Below, in pieces: positions 3,684 to 4,232 of a stretch of DNA of 64,000 nucleotides. How positions within the stretch are numbered: the stretch's first letter is position 1; each line of letters starts with the position of its first letter. This DNA is from Trypanosoma brucei. Lineage: Eukaryota. Where the stretch lies: assembly GCA_000002445.1 (NCBI GenBank), contig CH464491.1:3360001-3424000 (forward strand), written 5' to 3'. The notes below the pieces were generated by a model. It made no database searches. It worked only from the letters and a program-made list of their open reading frames with translations, and had not been told where the DNA came from. Made by a program: the position numbers and the translations under genes.

Positions 3684-4232
3684 ACAGATCCATGCAACAA
3701 ACTGTAGCATTAACTCACATTAGTGGAGAGCCGCAGCGCTTCATGCACTGGGGAGAAGGCAAACTAGTGTAGCTGCCCCAACATCTACTGAATATGTATT
3801 ACTGTTTGCTTTACCACTGTGAAGTCTGACCATCTTCCAGCAGATATCAGTAGACCGTAATGCCATGAAGACATCGACTAGCACACGTTTCGTTGGAACC
3901 TCATCAGCGCGACACTCATGGAGGAGGAACAAGCCAACTCGCGCAAACTCAAAGAATAGGGACCTGTGAAGAGTTGGCACCACACACACACACACACACA
4001 CACACGCTGCTGAAATCGTAGAAGGATTATGTGGCTGACCCGCCCTTACAGCAGCCTAAGTAATAAAAAGTAGTGGCTAACGCTTCATGATGTAACTGGA
4101 AAGTGTGCGGGCAACAAACCCTGAAGGAGGAAAAAGTGGGACAAGCAATAACACCAATTGGACATGAGGAAGCAAGGTGAGCTGAAGCTCGCTACACAGC
4201 GACATAAGTGAATGTAGCCGCACGCAAGGATG
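3684..4232. repeat. Dispersed direct repeat, copy A (~550 bp, ~99% identical to 51961-52512), containing a (CA)n microsatellite
   Basis: Shared sequence starts at agatccatgcaacaaactgtagcattaactcacattagtgg and ends at gccgcacgcaaggatgtac. Both copies lie in intergenic DNA and have the same orientation. Confidence 0.85.
3982..4005. repeat. (CA)12 microsatellite inside repeat copy A
   Basis: A caccacacacacacacacacacacacgctg run is visible. Confidence 0.9.

What the first reader, a model, noticed from the sequence alone, without database searches (positions are those of the whole stretch)
3684..4232. ~550-bp near-identical intergenic direct repeat (copy A) with an embedded (CA)n. Its partner lies 48 kb away.
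A 549-552-bp element is ~99% identical to 51961-52512, in the same orientation and in both cases in intergenic DNA between minus-strand genes. It has no long ORF that looks coding, and it matches none of the trypanosome repeat families I can place from memory (RIME/ingi ends, SLACS, the 177-bp satellite). Such high identity over 48 kb implies either recent duplication or ongoing homogenisation. Candidate roles are a duplicated 3'UTR or intergenic regulatory module, a small non-autonomous mobile element, or a boundary of an older segmental rearrangement. Copy A sits exactly at the distal end of the RNR tandem array.
Basis: seen in the sequence. Interest (0 to 1): 0.5.

Follow-up and report, generated by a model that had tools for sequence, protein, structure and literature searches.

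The report
Two-copy intergenic repeat, homogenised by recombination
A real 560-bp non-coding repeat lies downstream of two unrelated Trypanosoma brucei genes 48 kb apart; it shows no mobile-element hallmarks, the copies look to be exchanging sequence, and it fits a class of low-copy intergenic repeats already catalogued, so it is fairly ordinary.

Summary
Window 3683-4240 and 51958-52517 are direct repeats, 98.6% identical over 560 bp. Each holds a (CA)12-13 tract and the flanks are unrelated. The window is T. brucei TREU927 chromosome 11, within one minus-strand transcription unit.

In transcript orientation, copy A starts 84 nt after the stop of an ACBP-domain gene. Copy B starts 544 nt after the stop of a 444-aa hypothetical gene. 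RNA-seq contigs of both genes run into the element.

It lacks target-site duplications, terminal inverted repeats, a poly(A) tail, coding potential, an Rfam match and stable structure. Both copies sit at the same loci in T. b. gambiense DAL972 and T. b. equiperdum IVM-t1.

Across these genomes there are no fixed A-versus-B differences. At least four sites carry the same two alleles at both loci.

Between strains the element diverges 2-3 times faster than its flanks or four-fold degenerate sites, so overall constraint is weak. It meets the published operational definition of low-copy intergenic repeated sequences, of which 773 were reported in T. brucei.

Copy A is 193 nt from the RNR array edge, not exactly at it. 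Genome-wide copy number could not be measured. Interest is low to moderate.

The parts
3683..4240 (-). Repeat copy A (558 bp). In transcript orientation it starts 84 nt after the ACBP-gene stop codon (4324) and ends about 295 nt before the ATG of the first RNR-R2 gene (3386).
51958..52517 (-). Repeat copy B (560 bp). It starts 544 nt after the stop of the 444-aa hypothetical gene (53061) and ends about 245 nt before the ATG of the FAM228-like 445-aa gene (51713).
3981..4005 (.). (CA)12.5 microsatellite in copy A, read as (TG)n in the transcript. Its length varies between strains: long in both TREU927 copies, shorter by 3-4 units in both copies of DAL972 and IVM-t1.
52256..52282 (.). (CA)13.5 microsatellite in copy B.
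4025..4140 (-). 116-nt block invariant in all 7 sequences (both loci, 3 genomes, 1 RNA contig). It starts with a 14-nt polypyrimidine tract, CTTTTTCCTCCTTC (4136-4123), followed directly by AG (4122-4121). The equivalent tract in copy B is at 52413-52400, with the AG ending at 52398.
3868..3958 (-). Second invariant block, 91 nt.
3683..3867 (-). Hypervariable 3' third of the element. It holds 17 of the 28 variable sites and most of the variants shared between loci A and B; one shared site, alignment column 351, lies outside it beside the microsatellite.
4324..6660 (-). ACBP-domain protein gene (778 aa; EAN80232.1 / XP_829344.1). Copy A lies in its downstream (3'UTR) region. The spliced-leader acceptor of its mRNA is at about 6730.
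53061..54395 (-). Hypothetical 444-aa gene (EAN80244.1 / XP_829356.1). Copy B lies in its downstream region. The spliced-leader acceptor is at about 54839.
2373..3386 (-). First (most upstream in the transcription unit) RNR small-subunit gene of the tandem array (EAN80231.1). The array-unit homology stops at 3490.
50376..51713 (-). FAM228-like 445-aa gene downstream of copy B.
52549..52576 (-). 28-nt polypyrimidine tract just upstream of copy B. The first AG after it (52470-52469) lies about 48-49 nt inside the element. RNA contig breakpoints fall there in both copies (52468; 4191/4192).

Best explanation
This is a low-copy, non-coding direct-repeat pair in Trypanosoma brucei chromosome 11. 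A roughly 560-bp stretch of intergenic / 3'UTR DNA was copied once, before the Trypanozoon subspecies diverged, to a second intergenic site 48.3 kb away in the same polycistronic transcription unit.

Shown: both copies are transcribed. Each lies downstream of the stop codon of an unrelated gene, an ACBP-domain protein and a 444-aa hypothetical protein.

Inferred from sequence signals: each copy forms most of the 3'UTR (copy A) or the distal part of the 3'UTR (copy B) of those mRNAs.

Inferred from allele sharing: the copies stay 97-99.5% alike because they exchange sequence by ectopic homologous recombination (gene conversion). They are not kept alike by recent transposition or by strong selection on the sequence.

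Inferred by analogy with published cases: as a 560-bp direct repeat, the pair is also a potential substrate for recombination that would delete or circularise the intervening 48.3 kb.
For: Repeat and boundaries.

Organism: three window proteins are exact matches to TREU927 entries, one of them unique to TREU927. The RNR genes are Tb927.11.12780/12790.

Not mobile: no TSD, TIR or A-tail.

Non-coding: a six-frame translation found no relative among 5.8 billion proteins. There were no Rfam hits even at E=10. Folding energy is no better than shuffles, z=+1.75 for the whole element and -0.5 to +0.9 for the conserved blocks.

Age: both copies are at the same loci in DAL972 (L010, L018/L003) and IVM-t1 (L011, L012).

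Transcription: contigs carrying spliced-leader sequence at their 5' ends show the ERR79291xx assemblies are RNA. The ACBP contig L013 runs through the whole element, and the 444-aa gene contigs L019/L020 run into copy B.

Gene conversion: there are 0 fixed A-versus-B differences. Alignment columns 351, 482, 543 and 594 carry the same two alleles at both loci, and microsatellite length co-varies within genomes. A927-B927 differ by 3 substitutions, against 9-11 for orthologous copies.

Weak constraint: inter-strain divergence is 1.5-2.4% in the element, 0.5-1.3% in flanking intergenic DNA and 0.6-1.1% at four-fold degenerate sites (Fisher p 0.004-0.046).

Known class: Ubeda et al. 2014 define non-coding intergenic repeats of 0.2-2.5 kb, at least 85% identical, on one chromosome. 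They report 773 in T. brucei, with PCR-confirmed rearrangements at tested examples. Recombination between direct repeats giving a deletion plus a non-replicating circle is documented in T. brucei.
Against: Genome-wide copy number was not measured, because no tool here searches a T. brucei genome. "Two copies" holds only for the 64-kb window and the roughly 100 kb of fetched syntenic loci.

Poly(A) and spliced-leader sites around the element are not mapped. The RNA contigs also bridge neighbouring genes (L005, L023), so continuity does not prove that the mature 3'UTRs contain the element.

In IVM-t1 the two copies differ at 15 sites. That is more than most orthologous comparisons, so conversion is episodic rather than continuous.

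Variable sites are not evenly spread. Two blocks of 116 and 91 nt are invariant in all sequences (P=0.027 for the longest gap, 0.0046 for the two longest together). This could mean a constrained core.

Consensus assemblies of a diploid could mix alleles.
Confidence: 0.65

Rival explanations
1. It is a selected cis-regulatory module. The element, or its invariant central blocks, is a shared 3'UTR element that places the ACBP-domain mRNA and the 444-aa protein mRNA under common post-transcriptional control. Its similarity is maintained by selection as well as by recombination.
For: Both copies lie downstream of stop codons and are transcribed with the upstream genes. Two blocks (4140-4025 and 3958-3868) are invariant across both loci and three genomes, more than a uniform spread of variants predicts.
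Against: Taken as a whole the element is more variable between strains than neutral-looking sites. It has no significant RNA structure. None of the short motifs I scanned for occurs in it. The invariant-block statistic is modest and post hoc. Conversion initiated near the (TG)n tract could also shape the pattern.
Confidence: 0.12
2. It is a member of a dispersed multi-copy family, such as a non-autonomous or extinct mobile element or a wider repeat family. The window would then show only two of several copies.
For: Illumina contigs of T. equiperdum OVI stop 30-40 nt inside the element edges at both loci, as expected for any unresolved repeat. The elevated diversity could reflect extra donor copies elsewhere.
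Against: There is no TSD, TIR or A-tail. The boundaries are identical and sharp in both copies. No frame resembles any predicted protein, including retroelement ORFs. Two copies are enough to explain the contig breaks. Both copies are fixed at the same sites in three genomes.
Confidence: 0.1
3. It is an independent non-coding RNA gene, trans-spliced at an AG inside the element and polyadenylated, present in two copies. Alternatively it supplies an alternative long 5'UTR for the downstream RNR and FAM228-like genes.
For: The element has an internal polypyrimidine tract followed directly by AG, in the invariant block. Upstream of copy B lies a 28-nt polypyrimidine tract whose first downstream AG is inside the element (52470-52469). 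Several RNA contigs end at 4191 / 52468, and contig L023 starts at 4192 and continues into the RNR coding sequence.
Against: No contig shows spliced-leader sequence joined to the element. The contig ends can be de Bruijn-graph artefacts of a two-copy repeat. Copy A lacks the strong upstream polypyrimidine tract. There is no Rfam match or stable fold. A C/D-box-like TGATGA...CTGA pair has no terminal stem, and three polymorphic sites fall where a guide sequence would be.
Confidence: 0.08

Closest known systems
Low-copy intergenic repeated sequences (RS / repeat alignment groups) of trypanosomatids, Ubeda et al. 2014 PLoS Biol (PMC4028189)
   Same: Non-coding, intergenic, 0.2-2.5 kb, at least 85% identical, on the same chromosome, in direct orientation, and usually two members per group. 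That paper reports 773 such repeats in T. brucei and PCR-confirmed rearrangements at four tested examples.
   Different: I could not check whether this particular pair is in their list; only a figure is given for T. brucei. No rearrangement junction has been shown for this pair. In Leishmania about two thirds of such repeats are SIDER retroposon relics, and no retroposon feature was found here.
Leishmania SIDER2 elements (about 0.55-kb extinct retroposons in 3'UTRs)
   Same: Similar size, located in 3'UTRs, transcribed with the upstream gene, and usable as recombination platforms (text).
   Different: SIDERs are numerous and degenerate. This pair is nearly identical, and only two copies were seen. 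No A-rich tail or flanking duplication was found. The conserved 5' retroposon signature could not be tested.
Recombination between direct repeats at the T. brucei FRDg/FRDm2 locus, Wargnies et al. 2021 (PMC8065229)
   Same: Near-identical direct repeats on one chromosome recombine stochastically, giving a deletion and a non-replicating circle. That is the outcome predicted for A x B.
   Different: The FRD repeats are 1450-bp coding domains about 4 kb apart. Here the repeats are 560-bp non-coding sequences 48.3 kb apart, spanning roughly ten or more genes, so a homozygous deletion is unlikely to be viable.
Concerted evolution of trypanosome tandem arrays (PGK, hexose transporters, tubulin; cited in PMC2212663)
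   Same: Sequence exchange keeps paralogous DNA alike.
   Different: Those cases are adjacent gene copies. Here the exchanging sequences are non-coding, 48 kb apart, and attached to unrelated genes. Jackson 2007 saw no conversion in trans between the chromosome 4 and 8 duplicons.

Membership tests
Low-copy intergenic repeated sequences (Ubeda et al. 2014) | Non-coding and located in an intergenic region | tested here: met
   Both copies lie between annotated ORFs. There is no credible ORF and no protein relative in any frame.
Low-copy intergenic repeated sequences (Ubeda et al. 2014) | Length 0.2-2.5 kb and at least 85% identity to another copy on the same chromosome | tested here: met
   558/560 bp, 98.6% identical, 48,275 bp apart on one contiguous sequence. 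Criteria quoted.
Low-copy intergenic repeated sequences (Ubeda et al. 2014) | Recombination junctions (circle or deletion) detectable by PCR | not testable with these tools
   Needs outward-facing primer PCR on genomic DNA.
ingi / RIME / DIRE / SIDER-type retroposons | A-rich or poly(A) 3' end and target-site duplication | tested here: not met
   No A-run at either end on either strand. No shared k-mer of 5 or more in the correct register between the 5' and 3' flanks of copy A, and only chance 5-mers for copy B.
ingi / RIME / DIRE / SIDER-type retroposons | Conserved roughly 79-nt 5' signature shared by trypanosomatid retroposons | not tested
   No reference sequence of the signature was available in the tools.
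ingi / RIME / DIRE / SIDER-type retroposons | Remnants of retroelement coding sequence | tested here: not met
   Six-frame translation of the element: none of 7777 candidates scored E<=0.001.
MITE / DNA transposon | Terminal inverted repeats plus target-site duplication | tested here: not met
   Only 10-11-nt internal inverted matches, none at the termini. No TSD.
Known ncRNA genes (snoRNA clusters and others) | Match to a curated RNA family, or unusually stable structure | tested here: not met
   No Rfam hit at gathering threshold in the window, nor at E<=10 in 3400-4400. Fold z-scores +1.75, 0.0 and -0.5.
Gene-containing segmental duplication / part of the RNR tandem unit | Homology continues into flanking genes or array units | tested here: not met
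   No flank homology with word-7 BLAST. Flanking proteins are unrelated. RNR unit homology stops at 3490.
Paralogous sequences under gene conversion (concerted evolution) | Polymorphisms shared between paralogous loci and absence of fixed paralog-specific differences | tested here: met
   0 fixed differences. Columns 351, 482, 543 and 594 share alleles across loci in the three genome assemblies.
Paralogous sequences under gene conversion (concerted evolution) | Paralogs within a genome more alike than orthologs between genomes | tested here: inconclusive
   TREU927: 3 differences against 9-11. DAL972: 9 against 9-13. IVM-t1: 15 against 8-13. The condition holds in one of three genomes.

The most novel reading that the evidence does not exclude
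The element has a functional core. The two blocks that never vary across both loci and three subspecies include a polypyrimidine tract plus AG. RNA contig breakpoints coincide with an AG inside the element. The element might therefore be processed into its own trans-spliced non-coding RNA, or act as a shared post-transcriptional control module for two unrelated genes, with gene conversion keeping the two copies in step.
Probability: 0.12. Interest if true: 0.45.

Novelty: new member of a known kind. Interest (0 to 1): 0.22.

Why it matters
On the best-supported reading, it is a clean small example of ectopic gene conversion between non-coding sequences 48 kb apart in the T. brucei core genome. 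It would also be one more potential recombination platform of the kind known to drive amplification and deletion in trypanosomatids.

It has a practical consequence: short-read assemblies break at it, as the T. equiperdum OVI contigs do at both loci. Reads also cannot be assigned uniquely to the 3' regions of the two genes.

It would matter more only if the invariant core proved to be a regulatory element or a non-coding RNA.

Tried and rejected
1. Counting copies through predicted proteins. I searched a six-frame translation of the element, with the microsatellite masked, against 5.8 billion proteins. There were no hits. No ORF inside the element is gene-called anywhere, so this cannot count copies; it only argues against coding.

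2. Rfam at the gathering threshold and at E<=10 gave nothing.

3. RNA folding of the whole element and of the invariant blocks on both strands was no better than shuffles.

4. Mobile-element hallmarks (TSD, TIR, A-tail) are absent.

5. snoRNA idea. A TGATGA...CTGA pair about 50 nt apart on the transcribed strand was considered. I rejected it because there is no terminal stem, the base before the C box is C, and three polymorphic sites lie just upstream of the putative D box.

6. Older segmental duplication. No flank homology and no paralogy of the flanking proteins.

7. Orthologous locus in another trypanosome (assembly GCA_021307395.1, species not named by the tool; FAM228-like protein 40% identical). 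Synteny is conserved and the intergenic region is 918 nt against 1346 nt. An nhmmer profile of the element found nothing, and BLASTN found only GT-rich microsatellite-like matches to the TG tract. This is uninformative, because non-coding DNA is saturated at this distance.

8. The 444-aa protein has no detectable homolog outside T. brucei at the sensitivity.

9. Supplementary tables of three papers were searched for UTR lengths or expression of the flanking genes. Nothing usable was found, and the Tb927 IDs of the two genes remain inferred.

10. An exact-match scan of JGI metagenome contigs with 35 nt of the invariant block gave 0 hits.

11. A search for the run accession ERR7929156 in papers gave 0 hits.

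12. The bacterial promoter/terminator scan is irrelevant here and found nothing.

Full report

Yes. Pairwise alignment, the repeat finder (families D9/D10) and BLASTN all show that window 3683-4240 matches 51958-52517 in direct orientation. Identity is 98.6% over 560 columns. In the core there are 3 substitutions in 550 positions plus one dinucleotide-unit difference in the embedded (CA)n tract (3981-4005; 52256-52282).

The flanks are unrelated even with a word-7 search. Apart from microsatellite matches, no further copy exists in the 64 kb.

The RNR tandem-unit homology (1-1677 matches 1817-3490) ends at 3490. Copy A therefore lies 193 nt beyond the array edge, not exactly at it.

**2. Where are we?**

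All long ORFs are on the minus strand. Three proteins encoded in the window are exact matches to T. brucei brucei TREU927 entries:
- EAN80231.1, an RNR small chain found only in TREU927
- EAN80232.1, a 778-aa acyl-CoA-binding-domain protein
- EAN80244.1, a 444-aa hypothetical protein

All three sit on a 5.26-Mb record. The RNR small-chain genes are Tb927.11.12780/12790 in the literature. The DEAD-box helicase at 43681-45942 is most probably Tb927.11.12930. The window is therefore part of one polycistronic transcription unit on chromosome 11.

**3. Anatomy in transcript (minus-strand) orientation**

Copy A begins 84 nt after the ACBP-gene stop codon (4324). It ends about 295 nt before the ATG of the first RNR gene (3386).

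Copy B begins 544 nt after the stop codon of the 444-aa gene (53061). It ends about 245 nt before the ATG of a FAM228-like 445-aa gene (51713).

The four flanking proteins are unrelated to one another.

The 5' boundary is sharp (GTACATCC...). The 3' boundary (...GCATGGATCT) is followed by about 5 nt of partial identity.

There is no target-site duplication, no terminal inverted repeat and no A-rich tail on either strand.

The longest ORF inside is 86-95 aa and starts at a GTG within the (TG)n tract. A six-frame translation found no relative among 5.8 billion predicted proteins.

Rfam gave nothing, even at E=10. The RNA folds no better than shuffled sequence: z=+1.75 for the whole element and -0.5 to +0.9 for sub-blocks on either strand.

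A C/D-box-like TGATGA...CTGA pair was considered and rejected. It has no terminal stem, and its putative guide region is polymorphic.

**4. Transcript evidence**

Logan contigs from runs ERR7929156-64 are RNA assemblies. Three of them begin with the 3' end of the spliced leader (...CTGTACTATATTG) joined to the 5'UTR of the ACBP gene (at about 6730) or the 444-aa gene (at about 54839).

One ACBP contig (L013) continues from the coding sequence through the whole element to 3638. Contigs of the 444-aa gene continue through the 544-nt unique region into copy B. The element is therefore transcribed in continuity with both upstream genes.

Two signals place the expected poly(A) sites of the upstream genes at or beyond the 3' end of the element. 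One is the polypyrimidine tract plus AG most likely used by the RNR genes (3468-3450, AG ending at 3445, inside the region shared by all array members). The other is the equivalent tract before the FAM228-like gene. This rests on the established rule that trypanosome polyadenylation is coupled to the downstream trans-splicing signal. It is an inference, not a mapped site.

There is a caveat. Other contigs bridge adjacent genes (L005 spans Rab and MYG1; L023 runs from 4192 into the RNR coding sequence). Precursor RNA is therefore represented, and continuity alone does not define mature ends.

**5. Comparative evidence**

Both copies are present at the same positions in T. b. gambiense DAL972 (L010; L003/L018) and T. 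b. equiperdum IVM-t1 (L011; L012). The duplication therefore predates the divergence of these lineages.

In the Illumina assembly of T. equiperdum OVI, three contigs stop or start about 30-40 nt inside the element edges and one stops in the (TG)n tract. This is typical of an unresolved repeat.

In an alignment of seven sequences, the element shows no fixed A-versus-B difference. At least four sites (alignment columns 351, 482, 543, 594) carry the same two alleles at both loci in the three genome assemblies. Microsatellite length is long in both TREU927 copies and short in both copies of the other genomes.

Pairwise differences:

| Comparison | Substitutions |
|---|---|
| A927 vs B927 | 3 |
| A927 vs A-DAL972 | 11 |
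| B927 vs B-DAL972 | 9 |
| A-DAL972 vs B-DAL972 | 9 |
| A-IVM vs B-IVM | 15 |

Four independent parallel mutations are unlikely. The simplest account is inter-locus exchange, for example B converted by A in the TREU927 lineage and A converted by B in the DAL972 lineage, with IVM-t1 retaining more of the older paralog-specific states.

I excluded the RNA-derived sequence from this inference because a graph assembler can mix reads from the two copies.

**6. Constraint**

Between strains the element diverges by 1.5-2.4%. The flanking intergenic DNA diverges by 0.5-1.3%, and four-fold degenerate sites of the two upstream genes by 0.6-1.1%. Fisher tests of element against flanks give p=0.004-0.046.

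A roughly two-fold excess is what a two-locus family that pools and exchanges mutations would show. It argues against strong purifying selection on the element as a whole.

The variation is not evenly spread, however. Blocks of 116 nt (4140-4025) and 91 nt (3958-3868) are invariant in all seven sequences. The 3' third (3867-3683) holds 17 of the 28 variable sites and most of the shared alleles; column 351, next to the microsatellite, lies outside it. Permutation gives P=0.027 for the longest invariant run and 0.0046 for the two longest together.

This test is post hoc and modest. It leaves room for a constrained core, or for conversion tracts centred on the microsatellite.

**7. An unresolved detail**

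Upstream of copy B lies a 28-nt polypyrimidine tract (52576-52549). The first AG after it (52470-52469) lies about 48-49 nt inside the element.

Several RNA contigs from different runs end at the base after this AG: 4191 in copy A and 52468 in copy B. Contig L023 starts at the G of the AG (4192).

A start at that G is what a spliced-leader junction would produce in a de Bruijn graph, because the leader also ends in G. But no contig shows leader sequence joined there. The ends can equally be graph artefacts of a two-copy repeat.

The invariant 116-nt block also begins with a polypyrimidine tract followed directly by AG (4136-4121; 52413-52398).

**8. What it most likely is**

It is a low-copy intergenic direct-repeat pair. 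A roughly 560-bp non-coding segment was duplicated once within the transcription unit. It is carried in the 3' regions of two unrelated genes and is intermittently homogenised by ectopic homologous recombination.

By analogy with documented cases, such a pair can also recombine to delete or circularise the intervening 48.3 kb. This step is inferred, not shown.

**9. Comparison with known kinds**

Ubeda et al. 2014 defined non-coding intergenic repeats of 0.2-2.5 kb, at least 85% identical, on one chromosome. They reported 1,926 in L. major, mostly groups of two to a few, with two thirds being SIDER relics. They reported at least 773 in T. brucei, with PCR-confirmed rearrangements at four examples. 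The present pair meets every sequence criterion. Whether it is in their list could not be checked.

Wargnies et al. 2021 showed stochastic recombination between direct repeats in T. brucei, giving a deletion and a non-replicating circle.

Gene conversion is well known in trypanosome tandem arrays. It was not seen in trans between the chromosome 4 and 8 duplicons. Conversion between non-coding copies 48 kb apart is therefore a mildly interesting instance, not a new phenomenon.

Membership of retroposon, MITE, snoRNA or segmental-duplication classes was tested and not met. The exception is the retroposon 5' signature, which I could not test.

**10. Limits**

No tool here searches a T. brucei genome by nucleotide sequence, so the genome-wide copy number is unknown.

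The syntenic locus of another trypanosome (L027, assembly GCA_021307395.1) has a 918-nt intergenic region with no detectable homology to the element. At that distance this says nothing about the element's age.

**11. Verdict**

The feature is real. The "homogenisation" reading and the positional "3'UTR module" reading are supported. The mobile-element and rearrangement-boundary readings are not.

It is a new member of a known kind, of low to moderate interest (0.22). The most novel reading not excluded is a functional core or separate non-coding RNA inside the element (probability about 0.12).

Noticed in passing
window 52602, 52663, 52782, 52849 (minus strand), in the unique 544 nt between the 444-aa gene stop and copy B: There are four TTGTAC (UUGUAC) hexamers where about 0.13 would be expected for equal base frequencies, and none in the ACBP-RNR intergenic region. 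From memory, UUGUAC resembles the PUF9-type motif of S-phase-regulated T. brucei mRNAs.
   Followed up: partly
window 4191/4192 and 52468: RNA-seq contigs from several runs (L014, L016, L020 and two similar places) end at the same element position. L023 starts one base upstream, at the first AG after a 28-nt polypyrimidine tract in copy B. This is either an RNA processing site inside the element or an assembly-graph artefact.
   Followed up: partly
window 28183-29180 and 32615-33615; 30386-32250 and 34821-37122: About 1 kb of 89-100% identical direct repeat, 4.43 kb apart, flanks two large minus-strand ORFs. These ORFs are built from 63-nt (21-aa, ELRKQLSDVAGSKSSLEKELK-like) tandem repeats. 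It is a tandem pair of repeat-protein genes with homogenised flanks.
   Followed up: no
window 61656-61955 and 62347-62646: A 100% identical direct repeat 691 bp apart, at the ubiquitin-L40 fusion genes (two tandem copies in IVM-t1 locus L012).
   Followed up: no
window 1-3490; L010, L011, L022: The RNR small-subunit array has units of 1813-1816 bp. TREU927 has four distinct R2 proteins (EAN80228-31). DAL972 shows three called genes plus one uncalled unit. IVM-t1 shows three units, with one gene uncalled and one truncated to 278 aa, probably from long-read indel errors. Only about 104 nt upstream of the ATG is shared among units.
   Followed up: partly
window 54693-55169 (minus): The spliced-leader acceptor of the 444-aa gene's mRNA maps to about 54839, inside this 158-aa ORF (annotated as a 143-aa gene in DAL972). 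The mRNA thus has a 5'UTR of about 445 nt that overlaps the ORF, which questions whether the small ORF is an independent gene.
   Followed up: partly
L001, L002, L004, L024 (T. equiperdum OVI contigs CZPT02001952, CZPT02000335, CZPT02001382, CZPT02001123): Three of the four contigs terminate 30-40 nt inside the edges of the element and the fourth (L002) terminates in its (TG)n tract. The repeat fragments that short-read assembly at both loci.
   Followed up: yes
L008 (Logan ERR7929162_2379) positions 1-789: This is a chimeric RNA contig. An unrelated 236-aa ORF fragment is joined through spliced-leader sequence to the Rab GTPase mRNA. It is a reminder that these assemblies can join transcripts through the shared leader.
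   Followed up: no
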